DNA of 49,546 nt. Source: a virus. The stretch is taken from the IMG/VR virus record IMGVR_UViG_3300038438_000005. One strand, written 5' to 3'. A program made the translations under genes and the position numbers. Below are positions 2,493 to 49,427 of this stretch, one piece after another. A model generated the notes under the pieces. The model saw only the letters and a list, made by a program, of their open reading frames with translations. It was not told where the DNA came from and did not search any database. Every line of letters starts with the position of its first letter. Within the stretch, counting starts at the first letter, position 1.

Positions 2493-5042
2493 CTAGCGGG
2501 CGATGCCCAGTGGATCTAGGTAGCTTTGTGATGGCCGGACAAGGAATTTCTGGCCGTTTTCTTGTTGGATGCGCTGCTCTGTTCTACGCAGTGAACCTGG
2601 GTTCATGGCCTCTTGCACCGACCACAGGAACAGGTGGTCCATGGCGATACGCGTGTAGAACAGGTTCAAGAACGGGGTGTTGTTCTGGGCCAAGCGCATG
2701 GCTGACGAAGCGGCGTCATCACCAGAACGAACCTTGGCCCACAGGTCAATGAGGTTTGAGGCGGTTCCCAAGGTTGGCCCTGCCAGGCTTTCCAGCGGCT
2801 TGTTGCCGAATCGGCTGACCTCTCCAAACATGAAGTCACCCATGATTCCGAACCCGCCACCTTGCGTCATTGCGGCGATCCAGGTCTTGGGGTCATCTGC
2901 CGGCCGTGGCTCACGGCCTTTCACTGCATCCTTTGCGGACATGGATAGGTAGCCAAAGGCCGTAGTCCACAACATCAACTGGGCCATGGCCAGGCGCTCA
3001 CCGTTACCATTGCGCAGGGCGGCTATCAGATCCTTGCTGCCACGGTAACCCTCGCCAAGCGGGGTAGGCGCGTACCCACGCCCATACAACTCCCGGCCCA
3101 TGGTCTTTTGCATGTACGCGGCCGGGAAGCTCTTGAACTGAGTCATGAATCGGTTGAGTTCGCCCATGACCGTGCCAGGCCGGGTGCCTTGGTTCATGAT
3201 TGAGCGCGTGCGAGCGTCCGGCTCCAGCACTGCATAGCTGACCCGGTCGTTGACGTAGGCCCGCAGGCTGCGCTCCAGGCCTTCGCGGGTTTCGCGGATA
3301 GCCGCATCAGAAACCTTGCGGCCCTGGGCTGACAGGTAATCGCCGATGCTCTTGTCTGGAATACCCGGAATGCCGTCGGTGGTCAGGTAGTCCCGGCCAT
3401 CAGCCATGCGGGTATCCATCGAACGCAGTAGATCCCACTTGCCGGCGTCCAGGTCGTAAAGACCAAGCGTGCGGCGCAGGCCTTCGTCCATCGCCCCCCA
3501 TGCCCGCCCTTTGTTCTGGGCCAGGTTGTGGGCCATCATCAGGCCGGCGCTAGCCTTGTTGGCATCAGTCCACCAAGACAGGCCGTTGAGCTTGAAGAAA
3601 AGCGACATCCCCCGCGACATCTTACCGCCAACAGAGTCATCGGCCGAAAAGCGCCGCATGATCTCCCCTCGCATTGCATCCCCATAAACCCCAAAGCTCG
3701 ATAGGATTTCACGCTGCTCCAGGCTGCCACGCCCTTTGACCAGGCCGGCAGTCATTTCCCCCAGCGAACCCAGGAAGCTCTTGCCCTGATACCTCATTTC
3801 ACTGGCGGCAACAGGAAGGTCCGTAAAGCTCGACAGCAACGCGCCACCCAGCTTTGACAGTGACTGCCAAGCCCGCACGTTGGCGGACACCCTGGCGCCC
3901 CAAGCGCTGCCAGGTATACGGGTTGCACCGCTGACCTCGGCAAAGCGGTTGGCGATCATGTTGTCGCGCGCCGTGTTGAAGTTGGTCAGGGCTATTGGGT
4001 CTCCAGACTTGCGCACATCCTCGGCCAGAATATCCATGGCCATGTTGAGGTTGGACTCTGGGTTTGTTCCCAGACGCCGCATAATCCCGGTGTTCTGACC
4101 AGCCATATCCAGGCCGCGCAATACAGACTCTCGCAGGTTGCCGGTTCCGAACATCGTGTTGTATTCGTGCCAAGCTACGCCATCCTTGAAGTGCAGCACC
4201 CGTTCTTGGCTGATCTTCTTGGCGATGTTTGCCGGGCCTTTGAAGCCATTGGCTGGGGCGTCTTTCGGCGCCTTGAGGTGATCGCCAGACACCAGTCCGT
4301 CATATACGCCACGCAGGAACTGAGTAGGGTTGGAAACATCCTCAAAGGTGCGGGGGTCCAGCCGTGGCTGAATTTCTTCCAGCCACTTGTCGAATCCTGC
4401 AGACCCGATCTTCTCCCCGTCGTGGCTTTGCCGAGCAATGTATCCAGGCAGGTCGCCGATGTTGGCGCCGGCGCGGTTCGCATCAATGCGCGCCGCCTCC
4501 TGATATTTCTGGATGGTCTTGGCAATTCCGACCACCTGGTCATTCAGCTTTGATGTGTCCTGCTTGGTCCCGATCTTCCAAAGTGCATCGGCGATATCGA
4601 CATCCGAATCGCCCTTGGCCAGGATTCCGGTGAGGTCTTGACGTTCCAGGTCGTGGATCAAACCACCGATATAGGCGTCACCCAGCGCTTTCTGCTCGGC
4701 GGCTACCGACATGCGTGAACCTTGGCGGGCCAGGTTGGTGCCCACCAGCAGCGATTCAAGGCCCAAGTCTGGCCGATCTGCAAAGCTGCCACGCACAAAG
4801 GATACAATCTCGCCCCGACGGCGCAGGTTGAGCAAAGCGTTTCGCTTCTCGATCAGCGCTGCGTGCTGGGCCTGCTTGCCCAGCTCGTCTGCGGCGCGCA
4901 GGGTGGCCTGTTCCATACCAAGCGCACCCTCGCGGGCCATCAGTTCCTTGGCCCTGCCACGCAACAGTTCGAAGATCTCAGCCACTTCTCTGTCTTCCAG
5001 ATTGCCAGCAGCAGCACGAACAGCATCTATGCAAGGTGTCAT
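2493..5042 (-). CDS. Large internal virion/ejection protein (T7 gp16-position)
   Basis: 849 aa. Its ATG overlaps the upstream stop as ATGA at 5039-5042. Its position just before the tail fibre fits podovirus core-protein order. No enzymatic motif was recognised. Confidence 0.5.
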   Translation of the reverse strand: MTPCIDAVRAAAGNLEDREVAEIFELLRGRAKELMAREGALGMEQATLRAADELGKQAQHAALIEKRNALLNLRRRGEIVSFVRGSFADRPDLGLESLLVGTNLARQGSRMSVAAEQKALGDAYIGGLIHDLERQDLTGILAKGDSDVDIADALWKIGTKQDTSKLNDQVVGIAKTIQKYQEAARIDANRAGANIGDLPGYIARQSHDGEKIGSAGFDKWLEEIQPRLDPRTFEDVSNPTQFLRGVYDGLVSGDHLKAPKDAPANGFKGPANIAKKISQERVLHFKDGVAWHEYNTMFGTGNLRESVLRGLDMAGQNTGIMRRLGTNPESNLNMAMDILAEDVRKSGDPIALTNFNTARDNMIANRFAEVSGATRIPGSAWGARVSANVRAWQSLSKLGGALLSSFTDLPVAASEMRYQGKSFLGSLGEMTAGLVKGRGSLEQREILSSFGVYGDAMRGEIMRRFSADDSVGGKMSRGMSLFFKLNGLSWWTDANKASAGLMMAHNLAQNKGRAWGAMDEGLRRTLGLYDLDAGKWDLLRSMDTRMADGRDYLTTDGIPGIPDKSIGDYLSAQGRKVSDAAIRETREGLERSLRAYVNDRVSYAVLEPDARTRSIMNQGTRPGTVMGELNRFMTQFKSFPAAYMQKTMGRELYGRGYAPTPLGEGYRGSKDLIAALRNGNGERLAMAQLMLWTTAFGYLSMSAKDAVKGREPRPADDPKTWIAAMTQGGGFGIMGDFMFGEVSRFGNKPLESLAGPTLGTASNLIDLWAKVRSGDDAASSAMRLAQNNTPFLNLFYTRIAMDHLFLWSVQEAMNPGSLRRTEQRIQQENGQKFLVRPSQSYLDPLGIAR

Positions 5043-32517: not shown

Positions 32518-33255
32518 ATGAAAATCGAACATTCAGGCGACCGCCTCAGGCAATTCACTGCCCCTAGAAGCCTCACGCCGACCTGGCTTGCGGATAAATT
32601 TGGGGTGTCCACTCAATCGGTGAACAACTGGTTCAGCCGTGGCGTACCTAAGAAAGATCTCTATCGGGTTAGCCAGGAATTGGGCATTCGCTTTGAATGG
32701 CTTGATAAGGGCGAGGGCCTTCCTGTAATGGAAGGACTGGGAGATTCTAGGGATAGAGATGAAGCGGGCGAGTTGCCAGGCATTGAGGCTCTGGATGAGG
32801 ACGAGCCCCTAAGGCCCGACGAGGTTTGGCTGCCCTACCTGGAGGAGGTAGAACTAGACGCCGGTCCTGGTATGTTTGCGGTTGAAGAGAGCCCCAGCGC
32901 AAAGCTGCGCTTCTTTAAGCAGGACTTGCGCCGCAATGGCGTCCAATACCACAACGCCAAATGCGTATCGGTTAACGGAAATAGCATGTTTCCGGTTTTA
33001 CGCGATGGCGCCACTGTCGGTGTGAACACTGCCAAGAACTCTCTGAGAGATGTTGTCGATGGTGAGATGTACGCCATCAACCATAACGGTCAGTTGCGCG
33101 TGAAACAGGTGTACCGACTTCCTACCGGGCTTAGGCTGAGGAGCTATAACCGCGAAGAGTTCCCTGACGAGGACTACACCTTTGCCGAAATCCAAGATCA
33201 ACAGATATCAATAATCGGACACGTTTTCTGGTGGGCCATGTTCTCTAGACATTGA
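32518..33255 (+). CDS. CI-type repressor (HTH plus S24 LexA-like autopeptidase)
   Basis: It has an N-terminal HTH (TWLADKFGVSTQSVNNWFSRG), a long acidic linker, and a C-terminal domain with GNSMFP (Ser) and LRVKQ (Lys). Confidence 0.85.
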   Translation: MKIEHSGDRLRQFTAPRSLTPTWLADKFGVSTQSVNNWFSRGVPKKDLYRVSQELGIRFEWLDKGEGLPVMEGLGDSRDRDEAGELPGIEALDEDEPLRPDEVWLPYLEEVELDAGPGMFAVEESPSAKLRFFKQDLRRNGVQYHNAKCVSVNGNSMFPVLRDGATVGVNTAKNSLRDVVDGEMYAINHNGQLRVKQVYRLPTGLRLRSYNREEFPDEDYTFAEIQDQQISIIGHVFWWAMFSRH

Positions 33256-33272
33256 TCGCCGCCCACCTCTAA

Positions 33273-33297
33273 GCCCGGCCAAGCGCCGGGCTTTTTT
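33273..33297 (+). terminator. Intrinsic terminator after the repressor gene
   Basis: GCCCGGC-CAAGC-GCCGGGC followed by TTTTTT. Confidence 0.7.
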
Positions 33298-33350
33298 GTG
33301 CCTGCGATTTGACGCCCCCCCCTCCTTTGGCCTGCCGTCCTGGCGGCCTC

Positions 33351-33403
33351 AATAAACAAAATAAACATTTTGTGTTGACGCGTTTATAAACGTGTTGTTT
33401 ACT
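33351..33403 (+). promoter_or_regulatory. PL-like early-left promoter with repressor operator motifs
   Basis: TTGACG (33375-33380), a 17-nt spacer, then TTTACT (33398-33403). The palindrome GTTTATAAAC (33382-33391) sits in the spacer, and AATAAAC and ATAAACAT repeats lie at 33351-33368. Confidence 0.5.
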
Positions 33404-33489
33404 AGCTCACATCGCAGCGACTCAAGAGGGACTGCGAAGGGCCTCACCGCCCGCCGCAACACAGGCAGCGATGCCAGGCAGACGCCGAA

Positions 33490-33501
33490 CGCTCTTTAAC
33501 A
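33490..33501 (+). promoter_or_regulatory. boxA-like antitermination element
   Basis: CGCTCTTTAACA lies about 90 nt downstream of the -10 element. It matches the rrn boxA UGCUCUUUAACA at 11 of 12 positions and starts like the lambdoid CGCUCUU. Confidence 0.5.
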
Positions 33502-33980
33502 GCCAGCGCAACAAACAACAGACCGCATTGCCTCTACCGGCGACCGGCGAGCAGACAGGCCCGAAAGCCTGCCAACGACAGGGAAAACCTTGTACGGCTG
33601 CTCGATGGTGAAACGCCAGAACCGAGTGAGTGACCCGGTAAGCAATGCGCCCCGCGAATCCCAGCGGCAGAAGGGAGAGACACTGAATTCAAGAATTAGC
33701 GGGCCCGATAGCTTCGGCTGGGACCGCCGGACCTCATGCACCCTGCCCCACTCAATCAGGGCATTCAGAGCTGTAGCGTGCATGTTGTAAGGACCTGTGA
33801 TCCACGGCGAACAGATGCTGTTTGACGCTGTGAGTAGGAAGCTCGAAGCCCGCACCATGACAAACCGCCGACCTGCAATCAGCAGCGGGATACGCGGCGC
33901 CGCCCTAGCGAAGAGGGAGTCACCGCTGACGCAACAAACCCAGGCCGTCGCCAGTAGCGGGCCTGGATTCCACAGATTCC

Positions 33981-34020
33981 TGATGCCGCTTCTATGAGGC
34001 GGCATTGGAAATCAACGGAG
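33981..34020 (+). repeat. 40-bp hairpin-plus-SD cassette, copy 1
   Basis: TGATGCCGCTTCTATGAGGCGGCATTGGAAATCAACGGAG matches 34563-34602 at 39 of 40 positions. It ends 9 nt before the ATG at 34030. Confidence 0.8.
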
Positions 34021-34545: not shown

Positions 34546-34562
34546 TCAGCCGAGCGATTTAC

Positions 34563-34602
34563 TGATGCCGCCTCTATGAGGCGGCATTGGAAATCAACGG
34601 AG
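34563..34602 (+). repeat. 40-bp hairpin-plus-SD cassette, copy 2
   Basis: It is the same cassette as 33981-34020. The hairpin arms TGCCGCCTC/GAGGCGGCA are perfect here. It ends 9 nt before the ATG at 34612. Confidence 0.8.
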
Positions 34603-34611
34603 ATCACCAAA

Positions 34612-34779
34612 ATGAGCAACGAACGAAAAGTCGTCGAACTGCCAGACGGTTTCAACGGCGCAACCATGGCGTTTTATGCCGACCCAGTCGAAGTCGATGG
34701 GCAACTGATCAAGCTGCAGTGTGCGATTCCTGGGAAAGAGCATCTCATCCGCTGGGCCCGCCAGTCCGACCTGACCTGA
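34612..34779 (+). CDS. Small early protein, 55 aa
   Basis: It is preceded by the cassette-supplied GGAG. Confidence 0.45.
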   Translation: MSNERKVVELPDGFNGATMAFYADPVEVDGQLIKLQCAIPGKEHLIRWARQSDLT

Positions 34780-34858
34780 ACAGCCAGCGCCAACGTGAGC
34801 CTCACGCTAACTGCCCGAGTGCCTCTCACTGAGTAGCCGCGATGGCCATAGAGTGAGA

Positions 34859-35018
34859 CCGCATCGGAGTGTGCAATCGCAGGATGCAACCTTGGAGGCA
34901 GCGGCATTGACTAGGCGGGTTGCTCCGCTGACTAGATGCCGGCGATCAACTGATCACTGTTTCGATAAATCCCCCTGAGGTGGCGGTTCGACTCCGCCGA
35001 TTGCACACCCCGATGCGG
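34859..35018 (+). ncRNA. Candidate structured RNA A: 21-bp terminal helix enclosing a tRNA-like module
   Basis: 34859-34879 pairs with 34998-35018, with one A.C mismatch at 34868/35009. A T arm GGCGG-TTCGACT-CCGCC (34982-34998) abuts a 7-bp acceptor-like helix TGCAATC/GATTGCA. There is a D-like TGC-10 nt-GCA and a long arm at 34903-34940. No ORF with an SD is present. Confidence 0.45.
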
Positions 35019-35202
35019 ATGACCACTACACACCGCGCAAAGCGGCCCCCTGCATCGAACCTCTGACGACCTACCCCGATCCGTAGCCAGTAGCTGGACC
35101 GGGCCCACAGATGGCGACCTGCTGTTTCAGGCCTGCCATCTGGTTTCACAAATGCCTCTAGTCCCCCTGGAGGTATTTGGAAGCCAACAGACAGAGGCAG
35201 TT

Positions 35203-35421
35203 ATGAGCATTGGAACCGAATTCAAAAGGCATATACGGAACGGCTCTCGGCGCCCGGCAGGGGTCAAAGAGGACTCAGTGGTACACGCCAAAGGCGGCGA
35301 CCAAGAAATTATCCAGCGCGCTGACCGCGTTGACTGGCGGAATGTCTCTTCTTGGGCGTACACGGATAAGCCGGCAACCCCCATCGTGGATTACGCGCAT
35401 TGCGATGGCGAGTGCGATTAA
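35203..35421 (+). CDS. Small early protein, 72 aa, with a basic N-terminus
   Basis: GAGG lies 7 nt before the ATG. The N-terminus is MSIGTEFKRHIRNGSRRPAG. It lies between RNA elements A and B. Confidence 0.45.
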   Translation: MSIGTEFKRHIRNGSRRPAGVKEDSVVHAKGGDQEIIQRADRVDWRNVSSWAYTDKPATPIVDYAHCDGECD

Positions 35422-35494
35422 AACCTCTCCTTGCACGTCCGCCAGACGAAAATTGGCCCGATCCTTTCCTTGGGGAGACTCGTATAGGGAGAGG

Positions 35495-35578
35495 CTGCAT
35501 CGGAGTGTGATCTGAGTACCGCCAGCCAGCGCGAGAGCAAAGGCAGACAAACGTCATGCAGATCACACCCCGATGCAG
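35495..35578 (+). ncRNA. Candidate structured RNA B: same terminal helix motif, 44-nt interior
   Basis: 35495-35514 pairs with 35559-35578, with the same A.C mismatch. It shares the core GCATCGGAGTGTG/CACACCCCGATGC with element A. The inner helix differs compensatorily (ATCTG/CAGAT here, CAATCG/CGATTG in A). Confidence 0.45.
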
Positions 35579-35995
35579 AAGCGGCGTGGAAAGACTGGCT
35601 TGATGTTAAGCCTCGCAGACACGCTACAAGCGGCATGACTCGATGGGGATCGCTCCTTGGGGATTGGAACCAAGGTGGGTAGGTGCACACCATCCTTTTT
35701 TGGTGGAAACAGGCCCCTGGATTCGAACGTACAGCAGCCTTGCCGAGCAATCGGGCGATATCGAACGCGCTGCGGCCATTACACAGATCATGCACGGTCC
35801 ATAGCCGGGGTAGCGTCCGGCCTTCTGCATCAACCCCGGGGCCCACTGCACATCCCGCCGGGAGGGAGCCGAAAGGTAGCAGCAGCCCGCACATGCGGAT
35901 TTTCTTTCCAGCAAGCAACGGGGGATACAGCCATGAAATAGCTCAGTGAAGTAGATACCCCGCGCCACGTAGGGAGGTCTATGTGTCGCACCGAA

Positions 35996-36021
35996 AGCCC
36001 GGGCAATGTTCGGGCTTTTTT
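35996..36021 (+). terminator. Intrinsic terminator at the end of the structured leader domain
   Basis: AGCCCG-9 nt-CGGGCT followed by TTTTTT, 40 nt before the next gene. Confidence 0.65.
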
Positions 36022-36060
36022 ACGCCCGAAAACCGGGTGAGCCAACGAATGGAGAGATTC

Positions 36061-39058: not shown

Positions 39059-39655
39059 ATGATCAGCATCCTCCGCAACGAAGTAGAGCGCCTGCGCCCT
39101 GCCCAGGAAGAACTTGCCGCCCAGGTCGCTGAGTTTGTGGCGGCCGGCGGGCGGATTGAGGAAGGCCCGGCCAGCGGCTACATCCCCAAGCCAATCACCT
39201 ACAGCAACCAGATGCCGCCGGCGCCCAAGCCGTTTGTTCGGCGGAAGGTTGAAGCGCCTCCGCCACTGAAGGCCGATCCCATAGACCCTAGAGCTGACAG
39301 GCGAGCCAAGCAGGCCGAACAAGCGAAAGCCTTGGCAGCTACGCACACGCAGACCGAAGCGTGTTTCGCCTTGGGCATGACGAGCAAAACCGTAAAGGCT
39401 CTGGCAAAGGACTTCGGCTTTACCTTCAAGCGCTCAACGCACGGTGGGTACAACGGCCCGGAGCGGAAAAAGGAAATTGCTGCGCGCGATGCCAAGTTCG
39501 CCGAGCGAATCAAGGCGTTCAAGGAGCTTGGATTATCGCGGCGAGTGGTTTGCGGAAAGCTTGCGATATCGAACAGAACGCTGGACCGCATTCTGATCGA
39601 GTACGACATCGACTATCCAAAATTACGACTTGGAAGCCGAGCATGCGCCGCATAG
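39059..39655 (+). CDS. Hypothetical protein with a C-terminal HTH-like region
   Basis: 198 aa, Pro-rich in the middle. The C-terminal part reads GLSRRVVCGKLAISNRTLDRIL. Confidence 0.5.
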   Translation: MISILRNEVERLRPAQEELAAQVAEFVAAGGRIEEGPASGYIPKPITYSNQMPPAPKPFVRRKVEAPPPLKADPIDPRADRRAKQAEQAKALAATHTQTEACFALGMTSKTVKALAKDFGFTFKRSTHGGYNGPERKKEIAARDAKFAERIKAFKELGLSRRVVCGKLAISNRTLDRILIEYDIDYPKLRLGSRACAA

Positions 39656-40094: not shown

Positions 40095-40706
40095 ATGAAA
40101 GCCAAGACAATTTCTATCGAGGCTGACGGCCTCAAAATCAAAGGCACTGCCGAACGTATGATTCAGCTGCTCGCGGCTAGCTTGTTTGTGCATGCTCTGC
40201 CACCGGCCGCGAATGTTAAGCCGGTAGTTGCGTCAGCCGTTCCTAAGATCGGCCAGACTTGGCCAGGCCAGGGCGGTATCAATGGCGGATTCGTTCAAGC
40301 TCGCGGTGACGTCCCAGCGCATTACCTGATCTTCGCCGCAAAAGATGTTGGCAGCCTTGAATGGGGTGGCCGTGGAGTCGAGGTGAAGGGCCTCAGCAAG
40401 ACCGACGGCCTCACCAACACCCAGGTGCTGATCGGCAACGATGACGAGCGTCAGTATCCCGCCGCCAACGCATGCGCCGAATACCAGGCCGATGGTCATC
40501 ACGACTTCTACCTGCCGGCCGCTGCCGAGCTGTACCAGGGGTGGCTGAACTGCCCCGAGGTATTCGATCAGGACTGCTATTACTGGTCGAGTTCGCAGCG
40601 CTCAGCCTACCTCGCATTCTACGTGGACTTCGGTGATGGCAGTCAGGGCTTCAGCGACAAGCACTACGAGCTCCGTGTCCGCCCCGTCCGCAGATTCTTT
40701 ATTTAA
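40095..40706 (+). CDS. DGR target protein 1 (C-type-lectin/DUF1566-like) with VR1 at its C-terminus
   Basis: GAGGAA lies upstream. The product has IGQTWPGQGGINGG near the middle and ends YYWSSSQRSAY...ELRVRPVRRFFI. The last 35 codons are VR1. Confidence 0.85.
   Translation: MKAKTISIEADGLKIKGTAERMIQLLAASLFVHALPPAANVKPVVASAVPKIGQTWPGQGGINGGFVQARGDVPAHYLIFAAKDVGSLEWGGRGVEVKGLSKTDGLTNTQVLIGNDDERQYPAANACAEYQADGHHDFYLPAAAELYQGWLNCPEVFDQDCYYWSSSQRSAYLAFYVDFGDGSQGFSDKHYELRVRPVRRFFI
40593..40697 (+). repeat. DGR variable repeat 1 (VR1)
   Basis: 105-nt alignment to the TR (41983-42087). There are 15 mismatches, and every one is at a TR adenine. Confidence 0.9.
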
Positions 40707-40741
40707 TCCTTCATTCATTCGTTCTTGATCCGGCACACCAG

Positions 40742-40760
40742 GGCGCACAGCGCCTTTTTT
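40742..40760 (+). terminator. Hairpin plus T-run downstream of VR1
   Basis: GGCGC-ACA-GCGCC followed by TTTTTT. The stem is short, so the call is weak. Confidence 0.4.
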
Positions 40761-40785
40761 GTTGCCTTCGAAAAGAGGAAGCACC

Positions 40786-41400
40786 ATGTCCGCAGTTGAG
40801 AAAGCAGCAGTAACCATCCCGGAAATCGGCCAGGCCTACGGCGGCGGATTCGTCACCGGCATTACCCGCGACCCGTCCACCGGCAAGCGCTCCCTGCACA
40901 TCACCGCCGGCGCAGCGCATGAGCTGGTCGGCAAGTGGGGCGAGTACGGCGAGAAGATCGAAGGCGCCGATAGCTTTACCGACAGCCTGGCCAACACCCA
41001 GGCAATGGCAGCGGCAGGCAGTGATCTGGCAGCAAAGGTGCTGGCCCTGAACATCGAAGGCCACACCGACTGGGCAATCCCGGCGCGGGATGTGCAGGAG
41101 CTGCAATACCGCCACTTCAAGCCGACCACCGAAGAGAACTGGGCGAGCTCGCGCAATGGCGACAACCCAAACAGCGAGCCTGTAGGCCTGCTGTACAGCG
41201 AAGAAGACCCGGTGCAGACCATCCACACCGAGTTCCAGGAAGGCGGCGCTGAAGCGTTCCGTGACACCTGGTACTGGTCATCCTCGCAGCGCTCAGCCTA
41301 CGACGCATTCAGCATGGGCTTCGATGATGGCGGTCAGGGCGACAACGACAAGGACAACGAGCTCCGTGTCCGCCCCGTCCGCAGCGAGATTATTGATTAA
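40786..41400 (+). CDS. DGR target protein 2 (paralogue, C-type-lectin/DUF1566-like) with VR2 at its C-terminus
   Basis: AGAGGAAG lies before the ATG at 40786. The product has IGQAYGGGFVTG near the N-terminus and ends WYWSSSQRSAY...ELRVRPVRSEIID. Confidence 0.85.
   Translation: MSAVEKAAVTIPEIGQAYGGGFVTGITRDPSTGKRSLHITAGAAHELVGKWGEYGEKIEGADSFTDSLANTQAMAAAGSDLAAKVLALNIEGHTDWAIPARDVQELQYRHFKPTTEENWASSRNGDNPNSEPVGLLYSEEDPVQTIHTEFQEGGAEAFRDTWYWSSSQRSAYDAFSMGFDDGGQGDNDKDNELRVRPVRSEIID
41284..41384 (+). repeat. DGR variable repeat 2 (VR2)
   Basis: 101-nt alignment to the TR (41983-42083). There are 11 mismatches, all at TR adenines. Confidence 0.9.
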
Positions 41401-41414
41401 TTCGTTTATTTAAT

Positions 41415-41432
41415 CCGGCCGCTTGCGGCCGG
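41415..41432 (+). promoter_or_regulatory. GC hairpin downstream of VR2 (candidate DGR target-recognition hairpin and/or terminator)
   Basis: CCGGCCG-CTTG-CGGCCGG, a 7-bp GC stem with a 4-nt loop, 31 nt after the VR2 end. Confidence 0.45.
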
Positions 41433-41454
41433 TTGCTCTTGGAGAGCGAGCCAC

Positions 41455-41811
41455 ATGGCAATGCATACGGAACTTGCGATCTACAAGGCTTCAATGGGGC
41501 TGCTGCACATGGCCACAACGATGACCCGGAACATCCCCCGCGACCTGAAGCAGTCACTCGGCAAGCGAGTGATCGACGAATGCATCGAAGTGCTGATGCT
41601 GATTGCCCGCGCCAATGCCACCCAGGACAAGCGGCCACACCTCACCCTGCTGGTCGAGAAGGTGCAGGTAGTCGAGTTCCTGATGCGGCTCTTCAAAGAC
41701 AACCGCTTTATCAGCATCCCGCAACACGCCCAGGCAATTGAGGTAACGGCCTCAATAGGCAAGCAAGCAAACGCCTGGAAACGCTCCACCCCCACCGCGC
41801 CCGCTACCTGA
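41455..41811 (+). CDS. avd: DGR accessory variability determinant (Avd, four-helix-bundle family)
   Basis: 118 aa, helical and basic. NIPRDLKQSLGKR and SIGKQANAWKR parallel the bAvd-type pattern. It sits between the targets and the TR, and GGAGAG lies upstream. Confidence 0.75.
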   Translation: MAMHTELAIYKASMGLLHMATTMTRNIPRDLKQSLGKRVIDECIEVLMLIARANATQDKRPHLTLLVEKVQVVEFLMRLFKDNRFISIPQHAQAIEVTASIGKQANAWKRSTPTAPAT

Positions 41812-41982
41812 AGGTTAAGGCTTTCTGGTCTGTGCGAATTGAATCTGGTCGTGCCGCTGACCTCTGGGTCACCGCCATGCGCACAAGAGATACCGCCGGT
41901 CTAAAGCGTCCGGGCAGGTCTTGCGCAGTTTCCTTGCTGATCGGCTTTGCCTTCGGCCTGGCGACGTAGATAGCACGATAGG

Positions 41983-42087
41983 TCGCAGCGCTCAGCCAAC
42001 AACGCATTCAACATGAACTTCGATGATGGCAATCAGAACAACAACGACAAGAACAACGAGCTCCGTGTCCGCCCCGTCCGCAGATTC
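41983..42087 (+). repeat. DGR template repeat (TR)
   Basis: It is rich in AAC codons (read in the VR frame: NNAFNMNFDDGNQNNNDKNNELRVRPVRRF). It is homologous to VR1 and VR2 and lies immediately 5' of, and overlapping, the RT frame. Confidence 0.9.
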
Positions 42088-43183
42088 GACTTTGGGTCCC
42101 TACCCGTTTCAGGATCTGGTCCAGGCCTATTACGACTGCCGGCGCACCAAGCGCAACAGCGACAGCGCGCTGGCTTTCGAGATCGACCTGGAGCGGAACC
42201 TGATCCAACTACACGACGACCTGGTCAGCGGCAATTACCGCCCAGGCCGATCCATTTGTTTCGTGGTCACCAGGCCGAAAGCCCGCGAAGTTTGGGCAGC
42301 AGCCTTTCGGGATCGCGTCGTCCACCACCTGATGTACAACCATGTGGCACCGCGCTTTTACGCCAGCTTCATAGCGGACAGTTGCGCATGCATTCCAGGT
42401 CGCGGCACGTTATACGCCGCCACACGGCTTGAGTCGAAGATACGCAGCGCCAGCGAGAACTGGTCGAAGCCGATCTTCTACCTGAAGTGCGACCTGGCCA
42501 ACTTCTTCGTAGCCATCGATAAGGCCGTGCTGCGAAAGCAACTGGAAGCCAGGATAACCGAACCCTGGTGGCTGGCCCTGGCTACGCAGATCCTCATGCA
42601 CGACCCGCGCGAGGATTACGAGACGCGCAGCCCGGCGCACCTGTTCAACCGGGTGCCGCAGCACAAGCGCCTGGTTGCGCAGCCCGCCCACCTCGGCCTG
42701 CCCATCGGTAACCTGTCGTCGCAGTTCTTCGCCAACGTCTACCTCGATGCCCTGGACCAGTTCGCCAAGCATCGCTTGGGCGCCAAGCACTACATCCGGT
42801 ATGTCGATGACTTTGTGTTCCTGCATGAGTCACCGCAACAGCTCAACCAGTGGCTGGCCGAGGTCGAAGCGTTTCTGCCCAGGCTGGGGGCCAAGCTGAA
42901 CCCCACCAAGACGGTCCTGCAGCCCGTGGATCGCGGCGTCGACTTCGTTGGTCACGTCATCAAGCCTTGGCGGCGAACCACCCGTAAGCGGTCGCTGGCA
43001 CAGGCATTGAAGCGAACGGCCGCAGCACCAGCCGAGGATCTGCGCGAGACGGCCAATAGCTACTTCGGCCTACTCAGTCAGGCCAGCCACAGCGACAAAG
43101 ACCGGGCCGCACTCGCCCGCGTCGTGCTGAAGCGCGGCAATAGCGTCAACGCCGCGCTGACGAAGACCTTCCAGAAGAAGTAA
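42023..43183 (+). CDS. DGR-type reverse transcriptase
   Basis: It has the YVDD catalytic motif (HYIRYVDDFVFL) and the DGR hallmark IGNLSSQ (the I/LGxxxSQ motif). It also has FRDRVVHH. The true start is uncertain: ATG 42023/42026 lie inside the TR, and the in-frame alternatives are GTG 42065 and TTG 42092. Confidence 0.85.
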   Translation: MMAIRTTTTRTTSSVSAPSADSTLGPYPFQDLVQAYYDCRRTKRNSDSALAFEIDLERNLIQLHDDLVSGNYRPGRSICFVVTRPKAREVWAAAFRDRVVHHLMYNHVAPRFYASFIADSCACIPGRGTLYAATRLESKIRSASENWSKPIFYLKCDLANFFVAIDKAVLRKQLEARITEPWWLALATQILMHDPREDYETRSPAHLFNRVPQHKRLVAQPAHLGLPIGNLSSQFFANVYLDALDQFAKHRLGAKHYIRYVDDFVFLHESPQQLNQWLAEVEAFLPRLGAKLNPTKTVLQPVDRGVDFVGHVIKPWRRTTRKRSLAQALKRTAAAPAEDLRETANSYFGLLSQASHSDKDRAALARVVLKRGNSVNAALTKTFQKK

Positions 43184-47958: not shown

Positions 47959-48360
47959 ATGGCCAACACAAAGCTGGCGCCGGTCCTAGAGACCGCGCCG
48001 CGCTTCATCCGGGCGAAACACGCACCTACTTATCTCGGCATGTGTCGAGCGGTTTTTGACGAAACCGTCCGCCCCTGCGTCCGTGAGTTCCCAATTGGAA
48101 AACAGGGCGTTGCCTTCGACAGGCATGAGCTGGACCAGTGGGCAGACGCCTACGTCGAGCGCATGGCAATTGAAAAACAGACCAATCGGGACAACAATCC
48201 GCCCCGCAGTGGGCGCCTGGGAGAAAAACAATGGCGCGAAAAACAATGTCGGGCCTCTACGAGAGGAACGGGATTTGGCACATCGACAAAGTCGTCAGAG
48301 GTTGCCGACTTCAAGAAAGCACTGGAGCAAGCGAGAGGGAAGAAGCAGAGCAATACCTGA
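47959..48360 (+). CDS. Excisionase/AlpA-like DNA-binding protein (putative)
   Basis: The segment FIRAKHAPTYLGMCRAVFDETVRPCVREFPIGKQGVAFDRHELDQWADAY fits the winged-helix Xis/AlpA pattern. The open frame runs 130 nt into the integrase gene, so the true 3' end is uncertain. Confidence 0.5.
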   Translation: MANTKLAPVLETAPRFIRAKHAPTYLGMCRAVFDETVRPCVREFPIGKQGVAFDRHELDQWADAYVERMAIEKQTNRDNNPPRSGRLGEKQWREKQCRASTRGTGFGTSTKSSEVADFKKALEQARGKKQSNT

Positions 48361-49427
48361 TTCACCGGCTGGAAAAGCTCAGGCAGGAAAAGGTTTACGG
48401 AGTGCGACAGGTGCGAACCTGGCGTGAGGCCGCCACCCGATTCCTGGTGGAGTTCAAGGACCAGGCATCAATCAGTCTGTCCGCCTTACACATTGAGCAG
48501 CTGGACCCGTACATCGGGGATCTACCAATCACCCACATAGATGACGGAACCCTGGCCGCATTCAAGCGAGACCGACAGAAATCGACGACAAGCGAAACAG
48601 GGAAGGTAAAGCCAGGAGTATCGAACCGGACTGTCAACATCGCGTTACAGCGTATCGTTCGGATCTTGAACCTGTGCCACAGGAAGTGGCGAGACGCAGA
48701 GAAGCGGCCTTGGCTGGATAGCGTGCCGATGATCTCAATGCTGGAGGAGGCGAAGTCAAGCAGGAAGCCATACCCGATGTCCTGGGCTGAGCAGTCGATG
48801 CTGTTCTCTGAGATTCCGGATCACCTGTTGAGGATGTCACTCTACAAGGTAAACACCGGGTGCCGAGAGCAGGAAGTCTGCAAACTTCAGTGGGATTGGG
48901 AGATTAGGGTTCCGGAATTGGGAACGAGCGTGTTTCTGATCCCCGCTGATTTTGGCGGGAGAAGTGAAAAGTCAGGCGTAAAGAACGGCGACGAGAGACT
49001 GGTGGTGCTGAACAAGGTGGCGATGTCGGTCATTGATGGTCAGCGCGGCCTTAACTCAAAGTACGTCTTCCCCTATGGGCAGCCGGACGAGCGTGGTCCT
49101 ACCCCGATGCATCGGATGAATGACACGGCATGGAAGAAGGCCAGGGTGAGAGCCGCGGCGAAATGGGAGCTGGAGCATAAGTCGCCGGCACACCCTGGGT
49201 TCAGATCAATCCGGGTTCACGACCTCAAGCACACCTTTGGGAGAAGGCTACGTGCAGCAGGAGTGACACTGGAAGATCGGAAGGCGCTCTTGGGACACAA
49301 GAATGGCAGCGTTACCAGCCACTATTCTACCGCAGAGCTTGAGCAGTTGATCACGGAGGCAAACAAAGTGTCAGCGACTGATTCGCGCGGACCGGCACTG
49401 ACAATCTTGAGGAGGAAAACGGGATGA
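48231..49427 (+). CDS. int: Tyrosine integrase
   Basis: 398 aa with a C-terminal catalytic region (VHDLKHTFGRRL...LLGHKNGSVTSHY, giving the R...HxxR...Y pattern). It is adjacent to the tRNA-derived att repeat. The start is 48231 or 48246. Confidence 0.9.
   Translation: MARKTMSGLYERNGIWHIDKVVRGCRLQESTGASEREEAEQYLIHRLEKLRQEKVYGVRQVRTWREAATRFLVEFKDQASISLSALHIEQLDPYIGDLPITHIDDGTLAAFKRDRQKSTTSETGKVKPGVSNRTVNIALQRIVRILNLCHRKWRDAEKRPWLDSVPMISMLEEAKSSRKPYPMSWAEQSMLFSEIPDHLLRMSLYKVNTGCREQEVCKLQWDWEIRVPELGTSVFLIPADFGGRSEKSGVKNGDERLVVLNKVAMSVIDGQRGLNSKYVFPYGQPDERGPTPMHRMNDTAWKKARVRAAAKWELEHKSPAHPGFRSIRVHDLKHTFGRRLRAAGVTLEDRKALLGHKNGSVTSHYSTAELEQLITEANKVSATDSRGPALTILRRKTG

What the first reader, a model, noticed from the sequence alone, without database searches (positions are those of the whole stretch)
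34859..35578. Two RNA elements share a closing helix with an identical A.C mismatch; one encloses a tRNA-like T arm and acceptor helix
Element A (34859-35018) closes with a 21-bp helix, and element B (35495-35578) with a 20-bp helix. Both contain the same 13-bp core, GCAUCGGAGUGUG paired with CACACCCCGAUGC, with the same A.C mismatch. The inner base pairs differ in a compensatory way (CAAUCG/CGAUUG versus AUCUG/CAGAU), which argues for selection on structure. Inside A, a perfect T arm (GGCGG-UUCGACU-CCGCC) abuts a 7-bp acceptor-like helix that stacks on the closing helix. There is also a D-like hairpin with a GG loop and an extended arm in the anticodon position. B has only a 44-nt interior. 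The outline is a conserved terminal helix plus a tRNA-mimicking module, alongside a shorter sibling. It is reminiscent of bacterial Y-RNA-like YrlA/YrlB pairs, but there is no Ro/Rsr gene in the window and I cannot confirm a Ro-binding consensus. Alternatives are protein-binding (nut-like) sites for the basic-N-terminus 72-aa ORF between them, or put-like antiterminator RNAs.
Basis: partly seen in the sequence, partly recalled or inferred. Interest (0 to 1): 0.75.

Follow-up and report, generated by a model that had tools for sequence, protein, structure and literature searches.

The report
Stem-clamped modular RNA in Pseudomonas phages
The two hairpins are copies of a widespread folded-RNA module, absent from Rfam, that sits between early genes of temperate Pseudomonas phages: a conserved ~20-bp stem with flanking hairpins encloses swappable inserts (one tRNA-like here) and most likely marks where the early transcript is cut.

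Summary
Both helices, the shared 13-bp core, the A.C mismatch and the T-arm-like hairpin are at the stated coordinates. The two elements are not a private pair. They are two copies of a large RNA family found in at least 170 distinct sites in IMG/VR phage contigs and about 60 Pseudomonas species, always in the early-left operon downstream of cI. No Rfam family matches it.

The family scaffold is a CCCGA linker, hairpin H2, a ~20-bp stalk H3, GGAYGA, hairpin H4 and a CCNCCUGCAUC tail. Only the 7-bp base of H3 (GCAUCGG/CCGAUGC) is near-invariant. The rest of H3 covaries heavily. The insert ranges from about 10 to 380 nt and is swapped freely. At least 6-8 of 78 insert types end in a T arm abutting the stalk.

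Element A's insert is a singleton. B's insert has 13 homologues.

The A.C mismatch is one allele, not a family feature. The YrlA reading fails its tests: no Ro gene, no GNCGAA motif and no model match. The 72-aa ORF is absent from every other locus.

Best mechanism (inferred, about 0.4): an RNase III-type processing stalk in a boxA-led transcript, whose cut ends refold into capping hairpins. Main rival: a put-like antiterminator.

The parts
34779..34791 (+). 5' edge motif AACAGCCAGCGCC of element A. It starts at the last base of the stop codon (TGA 34777-34779) of the upstream ORF. The same 12-mer follows the canonical boxA at 33498-33509.
   Evidence: (D4)
34794..34806 (+). H1 hairpin of A (CGTGAG-C-CTCACG). 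Family variants are CGACAG/CTGTCG, CGTCAG/CTGACG, GGCAG/CTGCC and GCCAG/CTGGC.
34814..34818 (+). Invariant single-stranded CCCGA linker of A, complementary to UCGG in the 5' strand of the stalk.
34824..34858 (+). H2 hairpin of A (TCTCACT ... AGTGAGA, 7 bp), ending 0-1 nt before the stalk.
34859..34878 (+). H3 stalk of A, 5' strand. The near-invariant base GCAUCGG is at 34861-34867, and the A of the A.C mismatch is at 34868.
34879..34981 (+). Insert of A, which has no homologue in about 270 related loci. It contains a long predicted arm and the proposed but unsupported D-like hairpin at 34885-34900.
34982..34998 (+). T-arm-like hairpin GGCGG-UUCGACU-CCGCC, directly abutting the 3' strand of the stalk.
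34999..35018 (+). H3 stalk of A, 3' strand, with the near-invariant base CCGAUGC at 35010-35016.
35017..35056 (+). 3' tail of A: GGAUGA (35017-35022), H4 hairpin CCGC-GCAAA-GCGG (35033-35045) and CCCCCUGCAUC (35046-35056). Its CUGCAUC is complementary to GAUGCGG in the 3' strand of the stalk.
35436..35461 (+). H1-like hairpin of B (CGTC-CGCCA-GACG, 35436-35448) and linker ending in CCCGA (35457-35461).
35463..35494 (+). H2 hairpin of B (CCUUUCC ... GGAGAGG). The T7-promoter-like string is part of this hairpin.
35495..35578 (+). H3 stalk of B (35495-35514 / 35559-35578) enclosing a 44-nt insert that is conserved in 13 other loci and has a covarying inner helix. B has no H4 tail.
33490..33501 (+). 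Context: canonical boxA CGCTCTTTAACA, about 80 nt downstream of the PL-type promoter, opening a conserved non-coding leader (33486-33790).
35933..36026 (+). Context: Shine-Dalgarno site plus mini-ORF ATG AAA TAG (35933-35941), followed by a terminator-like hairpin and T run (35995-36026). This unit is enriched just downstream of family members.
   Evidence: (D2)

Best explanation
A (about 34779-35056) and B (about 35436-35578) are two copies of a cis-acting, modular structured-RNA element of temperate phages of the Pseudomonas fluorescens, putida and syringae groups. It is transcribed on the + strand as part of the early-left (PL) operon, between unrelated accessory (moron) ORFs. The scaffold is H1, a CCCGA linker, hairpin H2, a ~20-bp stalk H3 with the near-invariant base GCAUCGG/CCGAUGC, GGAYGA, hairpin H4 and a CCNCCUGCAUC tail. 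The tip of the stalk carries an exchangeable, usually structured insert; in A this insert is tRNA-like, with a T arm stacked on the stalk. Shown: the family, its architecture, the covariation, the strand and the genomic position. Inferred: the two-turn duplex H3 acts as an RNase III-type processing stalk, like those that flank rRNAs or separate T7 early mRNAs. Cleavage would split the operon transcript and free the insert as a stable small RNA. The liberated half-strands would then refold onto the conserved CCCGA and CUGCAUC segments, extending H2 and H4 into hairpins that cap the new 3' and 5' ends. A boxA leader upstream would keep this long untranslated, structured stretch transcribed, as in rRNA operons.
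For: Family and structure:
- At least 176 distinct sites share the scaffold. Genome hits are almost all Pseudomonas.
- With the 3' partner fixed only by the 7-nt anchors, stalk positions 8-18 pair in 85% of cells over 66 alleles, against 61% for shuffled partners.
- The count of structure pairs finds double changes in 12 of 12 variable pairs. That is 152 cells against 39 +/- 5 in shuffles, with a covariation score of 0.371 against 0.123 and no more than 0.119 for slid partners.
- The stalk has a median length of 20 bp, and 164 of 176 are 17-30 bp.
- H2 is a hairpin of at least 5 bp abutting the stalk in 80% of 70 distinct spacers, against 6% of shuffled spacers.
- The same insert occurs with different stalk alleles, and the same stalk allele with unrelated inserts.

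Strand:
- The element is co-oriented with the flanking ORFs.
- There are 17 GNRA/YNCG tetraloops in H2 and H4 on the + strand and 1 on the - strand.
- T-loop hairpins occur in 12 insert clusters on the + strand and 2 on the - strand.

Processing model:
- The element lies between ORFs, and the upstream ORFs are unrelated from site to site.
- In the isolated halves, the MFE structure pairs CCCGA with UCGG around H2 in 148 of 154 flank types. It pairs GAUGCRG with CUGCAUC around H4 in 98 of 103. This accounts for why these single-stranded motifs are conserved.
- A canonical boxA lies upstream on the same strand in 55 of 94 sites, never on the opposite strand and never downstream.
- Members with minimal inserts exist, so the scaffold itself carries the core function.
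Against: - There are no transcript or cleavage data. RNase III itself needs no conserved flanks or conserved 7-bp base, so a specific binding partner at the H2/H3/H4 junction remains possible.
- A few members have short stalks. L194 has about 14 bp, which is marginal for RNase III.
- G.U and A.C counts within the stalk do not decide the strand.
- The complementarity of the tail shows almost no independent covariation; its variants are mostly wobble-preserving.
- B lacks the H4 tail.
- Terminators and mini-ORFs enriched just downstream fit an antitermination role equally well.
- Sites are deduplicated only by exact sequence and the scans were capped, so the counts are not independent evolutionary events.
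Confidence: 0.4

Rival explanations
1. Processive antitermination element, put-like or otherwise acting through the junction. The conserved H2/H3-base/H4 junction would bind the transcribing RNA polymerase, or a host factor, as the 3' half emerges, and would carry it through the intrinsic terminator that often follows. The variable insert would project away from the binding surface.
For: - Conservation is concentrated at the junction and in single-stranded linkers, while the distal stalk and insert vary freely. The put structure paper (PMC9378689) states that the putRNA-RNAP interface uses residues from both stems. That put likewise has conserved stem bases and variable tips is my own expectation, not something the passages read state.
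- A terminator-like site lies within 500 nt downstream in 39% of sites under relaxed criteria (21% under strict criteria), against 9-16% (1%) further away. The order mini-ORF then terminator holds in 31 of 33 sites.
- No conserved protein lies between PL and that terminator.
Against: - put RNAs are about 70 nt, consist of two stem-loops, lie close to both early promoters and are present in both operons.
- Here the two halves are separated by 10-380 nt.
- Element A lies about 1.45 kb from PL.
- Only the left operon has a copy.
- A canonical boxA leader already sits next to the promoter.
- Many sites have no detectable terminator downstream.
Confidence: 0.22
2. Display scaffold for functional small RNAs. 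The inserts would be the point of the element: tRNA mimics, decoys or regulatory RNAs that act on host or defence proteins. This includes a Ro-independent, Y-RNA-like tethering role. The conserved clamp would only stabilise or release them.
For: - T arms abut the stalk in at least 6-8 of 78 insert clusters.
- L220, L087 and L090 have both D and T arms.
- ARAGORN at default settings calls a tRNA-like structure in L090.
- B's insert has strongly conserved unpaired segments across 14 loci.
- The element sits among variable accessory ORFs of the early-left operon.
Against: - Inserts are unrelated from site to site, and some are nearly absent.
- Element A's insert has no homologue, so nothing shows selection on it.
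- No tRNA, tmRNA or Y-RNA model matches at standard thresholds.
- No Ro gene is present and no large conserved neighbour occurs at the other sites; the Ro-binding motif is absent.
Confidence: 0.15
3. DNA-level feature. The conserved inverted repeats would be recombination boundary sequences, or the ends of a small mobile or invertible element, with no function as RNA.
For: - Flanks, stalk alleles and inserts are reassorted like mosaic modules.
- Truncated or deleted remnants exist in L203, L249 and L254.
- The fold is equally stable on both strands.
Against: - Every insert type keeps one orientation relative to its flanks, and there are no target-site duplications.
- There are many fully compensatory stalk alleles.
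- H1, H2 and H4 covary.
- Stable tetraloops and T loops occur on one strand only.
- The element is always co-oriented with the operon.
Confidence: 0.08
4. nut-like binding sites for the basic 72-aa protein encoded at 35203-35421 between A and B.
For: The protein has an arginine-rich N-terminus and sits between the two copies. H4 of A has a GNRA-like pentaloop reminiscent of boxB.
Against: - The ORF has no homologue in any of about 270 related loci, while the RNA flanks on both sides of it are conserved.
- It has no Pfam or PHROG match.
- H4 loops vary widely and no protein partner covaries with them.
Confidence: 0.02

Closest known systems
RNase III processing stalks: the rRNA operon stems that flank 16S and 23S, and the phage T7 early and lambda N-leader/sib sites (from established knowledge)
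   Same: A duplex of about two helical turns is formed by sequences that flank a structured RNA or lie between cistrons of a polycistronic transcript. Hairpins would remain at the new ends. boxA-type antitermination lies upstream, as in rrn operons.
   Different: Cleavage has not been shown. The 7-bp base and the single-stranded linkers are conserved in sequence, which RNase III does not require. The enclosed RNA is freely exchangeable and sometimes almost absent.
Bacterial Y RNAs YrlA/YrlB (Chen et al. 2014, PMC4201824)
   Same: A long stem formed by the 5' and 3' parts carries a module with tRNA-like T (and sometimes D) arms. Such RNAs also occur in phages.
   Different: There is no adjacent Ro60/TROVE gene, no GNCGAAN0-1G motif and no model match. 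Element A has the normal tRNA arm order rather than YrlA's T-AS-D order. tRNA-like inserts are found in only a minority of family members.
HK022 put RNA (PMC9378689)
   Same: A cis-acting structured RNA of adjacent hairpins in a lambdoid early operon, upstream of terminators.
   Different: put is about 70 nt with two stem-loops, lies next to both PL and PR, and has no long insert. This element has three to four hairpins split by a 10-380 nt insert, lies far from PL and occurs only in the left operon.
Lambda-type nut sites (boxA + boxB + N) (from established knowledge)
   Same: A short conserved motif, a spacer and a small hairpin (GGAYGA - N - H4). Some H4 loops are GNRA-like. The element lies in the early operon.
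   Different: The conserved motif is not boxA; the canonical boxA lies 1.3 kb upstream. H4 loops vary and no N-like partner is conserved.
1:2 / 2:3 / 3:4 alternative-pairing leaders, trp-type attenuators (from established knowledge)
   Same: Four conserved segments can pair as 2:3 (the base of the stalk), or as 1:2 plus 3:4.
   Different: The 3:4 hairpin is not followed by a U run. The 2:3 pairing is extended by at least 12 further base pairs, so it should dominate at equilibrium.

Membership tests
YrlA / bacterial Y RNA | Encoded next to a Ro60/Rsr (TROVE-domain) gene | tested here: not met
   Pfam scans of 30 window ORFs, including the ten largest, found no TROVE domain. No conserved large neighbour appears across 176 sites.
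YrlA / bacterial Y RNA | GNCGAAN0-1G motif near the 5' end (proposed Ro contact; PMC4201824) | tested here: not met
   The motif is absent from window 34700-35700 on the + strand. In the family it lies near the 5' strand in 5 of 176 members, and anywhere in the element in 20% of members against 13% of shuffles.
YrlA / bacterial Y RNA | Match to a Y-RNA-type covariance model, with T arm - AS stem - D arm order | tested here: not met
   cmscan at E <= 10 returns only miRNA and snoRNA noise, and nothing for 15 related loci. In A the T arm lies at the 3' end next to the stalk, which is the normal tRNA order.
YrlA / bacterial Y RNA | Long stem formed by the 5' and 3' parts of the RNA | tested here: met
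YrlA / bacterial Y RNA | Bound by Ro60/Rsr in vivo | not testable with these tools
   This would need immunoprecipitation.
tRNA / tmRNA gene or attP remnant | Detected by ARAGORN or the Rfam tRNA/tmRNA models | tested here: not met
   There are no genes in the window and no Rfam match. At default thresholds only L090, not A, is called. Lowered thresholds give hits on both strands, which is noise.
tRNA / tmRNA gene or attP remnant | T arm (5-bp stem, UUCRANY loop) continuous with a 7-bp acceptor helix | tested here: met
   In A the T arm is at 34982-34998 and abuts GAUUGCA. The helix continues for 13 more base pairs, so there is no free 3' end.
tRNA / tmRNA gene or attP remnant | D arm and anticodon arm | tested here: inconclusive
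   The proposed 3-bp D-like hairpin is absent from the MFE and centroid folds. A has no homologues on which to test covariation.
HK022 put RNA | About 70 nt, two stem-loops, close to the early promoters, one copy in each early operon | tested here: not met
HK022 put RNA | Terminators downstream that must be read through | tested here: inconclusive
   Terminators are enriched but not universal: 21-39% of sites have one within 500 nt.
Lambda-type nut site | boxA consensus immediately 5' of a boxB hairpin, with a cognate arginine-rich N protein | tested here: not met
   Only the 33490 site matches boxA. The element has AACAGCCAGCGCC and GGAYGA instead. The 72-aa ORF is unique to this window.
RNase III processing stalk | Duplex of about 20 bp or more, formed by sequences flanking a structured RNA or lying between cistrons | tested here: met
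   The median stalk is 20 bp and is maintained by compensatory changes. The position is intercistronic.
RNase III processing stalk | Cleaved by RNase III, yielding discrete ends | not testable with these tools
   No transcript data are available.
Invertible segment / MITE | The same interior in both orientations, or target-site duplications and presence/absence polymorphism | tested here: not met
   Each insert type keeps a single orientation relative to its flanks. No duplications were seen.

The most novel reading that the evidence does not exclude
Temperate Pseudomonas phages carry an RNA 'cassette holder'. A conserved clamp (H2, stalk, H4, with self-capping refolding segments) would be processed from the early transcript to release interchangeable structured small RNAs, including acceptor/T-arm tRNA mimics. 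This would be an RNA counterpart of the accessory (moron) and anti-defence protein islands found at the same genomic position, with inserts swapped between phages by recombination at the clamp.
Probability: 0.2. Interest if true: 0.8.

Novelty: new variant of a known kind. Interest (0 to 1): 0.62.

Why it matters
If the reading is right, a large group of temperate Pseudomonas phages, including phages of plant pathogens that are available in culture (Medea1, phiPSA1, Orimi01), share an unannotated, strongly covarying RNA module in their early operon, and current annotations overwrite it with 'hypothetical proteins'. It would provide several things:
- a defined, testable case of transcript processing and end-capping logic outside the enterobacterial phages;
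- a natural scaffold that tolerates arbitrary structured inserts;
- a set of phage-borne tRNA-like RNAs whose targets are unknown.

It also shows that the early-left operons of these phages contain several hundred nucleotides of conserved non-coding RNA: a boxA leader, this element, and a mini-ORF plus terminator unit.

Tried and rejected
- **Rfam.** I scanned the whole window at gathering thresholds, the region at E <= 10, and 15 related loci at E <= 0.1. Nothing matched the element.
- **tRNA/tmRNA detection.** ARAGORN found nothing at default settings. With introns allowed and thresholds lowered it gave hits on both strands, which I rejected as noise.
- **T7-type promoter upstream of B.** The string GACTCGTATAGGGAGA is part of the H2 hairpin and is conserved as structure.
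- **Small ORF starting at the AUG in CCGAUGC.** Tail lengths of 34-40 nt are not multiples of three apart.
- **N-like ORF in the PL leader (33605-33790).** There is no third-position bias, and homologues carry stops and frameshifts.
- **Conserved protein partner.** Upstream ORFs are unrelated, and no neighbour family is universal.
- **Rsm/CsrA sponge.** There is only one GGA per element, and the loops lack GGA (reading).
- **Strand from G.U versus A.C counts in the stalk.** The counts are 32 versus 18, plus the position-8 mismatches, which is uninformative.
- **Covariation between the linker or tail and the stalk base.** The segments are too invariant to test.
- **MAFFT alignment of whole flanks.** H2 length variation wrecked the alignment, so I analysed the helices separately.
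- **Literature.** Five full-text searches found no description of this element.
Full report
**1. Checking the observation**

- Element A closes with 34859-34879 pairing to 34998-35018.
- Element B closes with 35495-35514 pairing to 35559-35578.
- Both contain GCATCGGAGTGTG / CACACCCCGATGC with one A.C mismatch.
- The inner pairs differ in a compensatory way.

The repeat finder reports both arm pairs (I2 and I3). The folds are far more stable than shuffles: A is -77.9 kcal/mol (z = -6.0) and B is -40.3 kcal/mol (z = -6.8).

The T-arm-like hairpin GGCGG-TTCGACT-CCGCC is at 34982-34998 and runs straight into the 3' strand of the stalk. C34998 cannot serve both helices, so the stalk of A covers 20 positions if the T stem forms. 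The suggested D-like hairpin appears in no predicted fold. ARAGORN finds no tRNA or tmRNA in the window. Rfam at E <= 10 gives only miRNA and snoRNA noise across 34700-35750.

**2. Genomic context**

The window is a mosaic temperate Pseudomonas phage or prophage.
- Structural, lysis and replication genes lie on the - strand.
- A CI-type S24 repressor lies at 32518-33255 on the + strand, followed by its terminator.
- Next comes a PL-like promoter and operator at about 33375-33405.
- The early-left operon then runs on the + strand to an integrase at 48231-49427.

A and B lie 1.45 and 2.1 kb into that operon, between small ORFs of unknown function.

**3. A and B belong to a large family**

BLAST against phage records first showed that the 3' arm of A and the 45 nt after it are conserved in Medea1, phiPSA1, the psage phages and the Orimi/Orisa phages. 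Reading those loci showed the same closing helix around unrelated interiors, in the same position downstream of cI.

A genome scan gave 66 stretches, almost all from the Pseudomonas fluorescens, putida and syringae groups and none from P. aeruginosa.

A second IMG/VR scan was anchored on the upstream hairpin and linker rather than the stalk. After pooling, 176 distinct sites remained.

Profiles of the two halves of the family were built without the window sequences. They hit the window only at 34770-34873 plus 35004-35061 (A) and at 35411-35516 plus 35558-35581 (B). The real elements are therefore longer than reported, and there are exactly two.

Two copies per locus is unusual: only 3 of about 170 loci with the element have two.

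**4. Anatomy of the family**

On the + strand the parts run in this order:
- A motif (A)ACAACCAGCGCC, which usually starts at the stop codon of the upstream ORF.
- Hairpin H1 (ACGACAGCCUGUCGU and covarying variants).
- A linker ending in the invariant CCCGA.
- Hairpin H2, ending 0-2 nt before the stalk.
- Stalk H3.
- GGAYGA and a short spacer.
- Hairpin H4.
- The tail CC(A/C)CCUGCAU(C).

A has all of these parts. B has a variant H1, a long H2 and no H4 tail, and its flanks are 95% identical to those in L026.

**5. What is conserved and what covaries in the stalk**

The unbiased scan shows that only the 7-bp base GCAUCGG/CCGAUGC is near-invariant.

I fixed the 3' partner using the 7-nt anchors alone. 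Positions 8-18 then pair in 85% of cells over 66 distinct alleles, against 61% (maximum 66%) when partners are shuffled. Many alleles are completely different but fully complementary.

On 64 distinct stalk sequences, the count of structure pairs gives these results:

| Measure | Observed | Control |
|---|---|---|
| Variable pairs with changes on both sides | 12 of 12 | - |
| Cells with changes on both sides | 152 | 39 +/- 5 (shuffles) |
| Covariation score | 0.371 | 0.123 (shuffles); <= 0.119 (slid partners) |

The stalk has a median length of 20 bp, and 164 of 176 are 17-30 bp.

In other alleles it is U-A, A-U or C-G. It is a polymorphism, not a hallmark of the family.

Element A's inner allele (GCAAUCG/CGAUUGC) is unique in the first set of 75 sites.

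**6. Flanking hairpins and strand**

H2 is a hairpin of at least 5 bp abutting the stalk in 80% of 70 distinct spacers, against 6% of shuffled spacers. It has several unrelated stem sequences. H1 and H4 likewise come in covarying versions.

The fold energy is the same on both strands, and G.U versus A.C counts in the stalk do not discriminate. Three other lines point to the + strand:
- The element is always co-oriented with the operon.
- H2 and H4 carry 17 GNRA/YNCG tetraloops on the + strand against 1 on the - strand.
- T-loop hairpins occur in 12 of 78 insert clusters on the + strand against 2 on the - strand.

Tail lengths of 34-40 nt rule out a reading frame.

**7. The inserts**

Inserts range from about 10 to about 380 nt, with a median of 88 nt beyond the stalk. 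They fall into about 78 unrelated clusters.

The same insert occurs with different stalk alleles. For example, the B-type insert in L255 has a wholly different but complementary stalk. The same stalk also occurs with unrelated inserts. Each insert type keeps one orientation relative to its flanks, which excludes an invertible segment.

At least 6-8 clusters end in a canonical T arm placed 0-2 nt from the 3' strand of the stalk: the window's element A, L048, L081, L147, L155, L220, and the L001 and L270 types. L220, L087 and L090 also have a D arm. Only L090 passes ARAGORN at default settings.

tRNA mimicry is therefore a recurrent theme in a minority of members. Other members have almost no insert (L194, L259, L212), so the scaffold itself must carry the core function.

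Element A's insert has no homologue in about 270 loci, so its tRNA-likeness cannot be tested by covariation. B's insert has 13 homologues, with a covarying inner helix and strongly conserved unpaired stretches.

**8. Neighbours**

- The 72-aa ORF between A and B is found in no other locus, although the non-coding sequence on both sides of it is. It matches no Pfam or PHROG family.
- The ORFs immediately upstream of the element are unrelated from site to site.
- The only widely shared neighbour is the cI repressor, about 2.6 kb upstream on the same strand. No other neighbour family is found at more than about a third of the sites, and no conserved large neighbour that could be a Ro protein appears.
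- No TROVE domain is present among the 30 window ORFs scanned, including the ten largest.
- A canonical boxA (CGCTCTTTAA) lies upstream on the same strand in 55 of 94 sites that have enough flank, at a median distance of 950 nt. It never lies on the other strand and never downstream.
- In the window, boxA is at 33490. It opens a roughly 300-nt leader that is conserved in more than 100 loci and is not coding.
- Downstream, a Shine-Dalgarno site plus a mini-ORF of at most 4 codons occurs within 500 nt in 28% of sites, against 0-2% elsewhere.
- A terminator-like hairpin occurs within 500 nt downstream in 39% of sites against 9-16% elsewhere. With strict criteria the figures are 21% against 1%.
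- The order is mini-ORF then terminator in 31 of 33 sites that have both. In the window these are at 35933-35941 and 35995-36026.

**9. How it most likely works**

*Shown.* This is a conserved, strand-specific, intercistronic RNA structure. Its invariant parts are the base of a two-turn duplex and two single-stranded segments.

*Clue.* These segments form a complementarity set. CCCGA(U) matches (A)UCGG of the 5' strand of the stalk. CUGCAUC matches GAUGCRG of the 3' strand. When the two halves are folded separately, the MFE structure uses exactly these pairings. They extend H2 in 148 of 154 flank types and H4 in 98 of 103.

*Inference.* A perfect ~20-bp duplex within a bacterial mRNA is the canonical RNase III substrate (established knowledge). 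I therefore propose four steps:
- H3 is a processing stalk.
- Cutting it separates the upstream accessory genes from the downstream genes and releases the insert.
- Each liberated half-strand snaps back onto its conserved partner.
- This dissociates the products and caps the new 3' end (H2 side) and 5' end (H4 side).

The boxA leader, long untranslated structured RNA and flanking-sequence stalks together parallel the logic of rRNA operons. The intercistronic position parallels the T7 early RNase III sites.

I put this mechanism at about 0.4. That the element is a genuine structured-RNA family I put at about 0.9.

**10. Rivals**

- **Antiterminator acting through the junction, put-like (0.22).** This fits the conservation pattern and the downstream terminators. 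It fits poorly with the split architecture, the distance from PL, the absence of a right-operon copy and the boxA leader already beside the promoter.
- **Inserts as the functional cargo, including tRNA mimics or Y-RNA-like tethers (0.15).** This is compatible with processing, but it cannot be the general function because minimal members exist.
- **DNA-level recombination linker or mobile element (0.08).** This is contradicted by the compensatory changes and the strand-specific loop motifs.
- **nut sites for the 72-aa protein (0.02).** This is contradicted by the absence of that ORF everywhere else.

**11. Comparison with known families**

The element works most like an RNase III processing stalk, but cleavage is untested. 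The conserved junction is not something RNase III needs.

It is not a YrlA. There is no Ro gene, no GNCGAAN0-1G motif and no model match, and the arm order differs from that described in PMC4201824. It is also not a put RNA by size, number or position, and not a lambda-type nut site.

No Rfam 15 family matches the window region or 15 related loci. Five full-text literature searches found no description of it.

**12. Caveats**

- Sites were deduplicated only by exact sequence, so counts of cells are not counts of evolutionary events.
- The 3' partner was assigned by a simple anchor rule that mis-assigns about 10 sites.
- The refolding idea was derived from the same sequences on which it was evaluated.
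- No expression data were available.

Noticed in passing
window 40095-43183: A diversity-generating retroelement cassette. It has two Lcl_C-domain ORFs (40095-40706, 40786-41400), bAvd (41455-41811), the Rfam RT-15 RNA (41795-41985, 179.9 bits) and an RVT_1 reverse transcriptase (42023-43183). Phage Cruim01 carries a related region annotated 'RT-15'.
   Followed up: partly
window 33375-33790: A PL-type promoter and palindromic operator, then a perfect boxA (CGCTCTTTAACA, 33490-33501), then a roughly 300-nt leader conserved at 80-95% identity in more than 100 related loci. The ORF at 33605 is not coding: it shows no codon-position bias, and homologues carry stops and frameshifts. This may be a second uncharacterised structured RNA.
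   Followed up: partly
window 33977-34020 and 34559-34602: A 44-nt module (hairpin ATGCCGC..GCGGCAT plus GGAG ribosome-binding site) is repeated at 95% identity in front of two small ORFs. It is 98% identical in phages MR13 and MR15.
   Followed up: no
window 35933-36026: A Shine-Dalgarno site plus a two-codon mini-ORF (ATG AAA TAG), followed about 55 nt later by a terminator-like hairpin with a T run. The hairpin resembles the cI terminator at 33271-33302 (78% identity). The pairing of mini-ORF and terminator is strongly enriched just downstream of family members (28% against 0-2% of sites). It is reminiscent of the lambda bar minigenes.
   Followed up: partly
window 35615-35836: A non-coding stretch after B is conserved at 89% identity in Orimi01 and L054, where it is annotated as part of a 'hypothetical protein' CDS. 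No convincing ORF exists in the window.
   Followed up: no
L061 311-510; L190, L250 and other loci: A recurrent insert type begins with a hairpin whose loop is GGCUGAU and ends with a hairpin whose loop is AUCAGC, making them candidates for a kissing interaction. L250 has GGCCGAU with CUCGGC, a compensatory pair of changes. In L061 the same module sits in a second, different stalk (GCAGAUGA/UCAUCUGC) downstream of the element. The H1 loop CAGCC is also complementary to GGCUG.
   Followed up: partly
L002 (Medea1) 3409-3484: A complete tRNA-Met (CAU) gene is inserted between the terminator that follows the element and the next conserved block. phiPSA1 lacks it at the same junction.
   Followed up: no
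window 39059-39655: The ORF has a weak, below-cutoff match to the SutA RNA-polymerase-binding domain and also carries an HTH motif.
   Followed up: no
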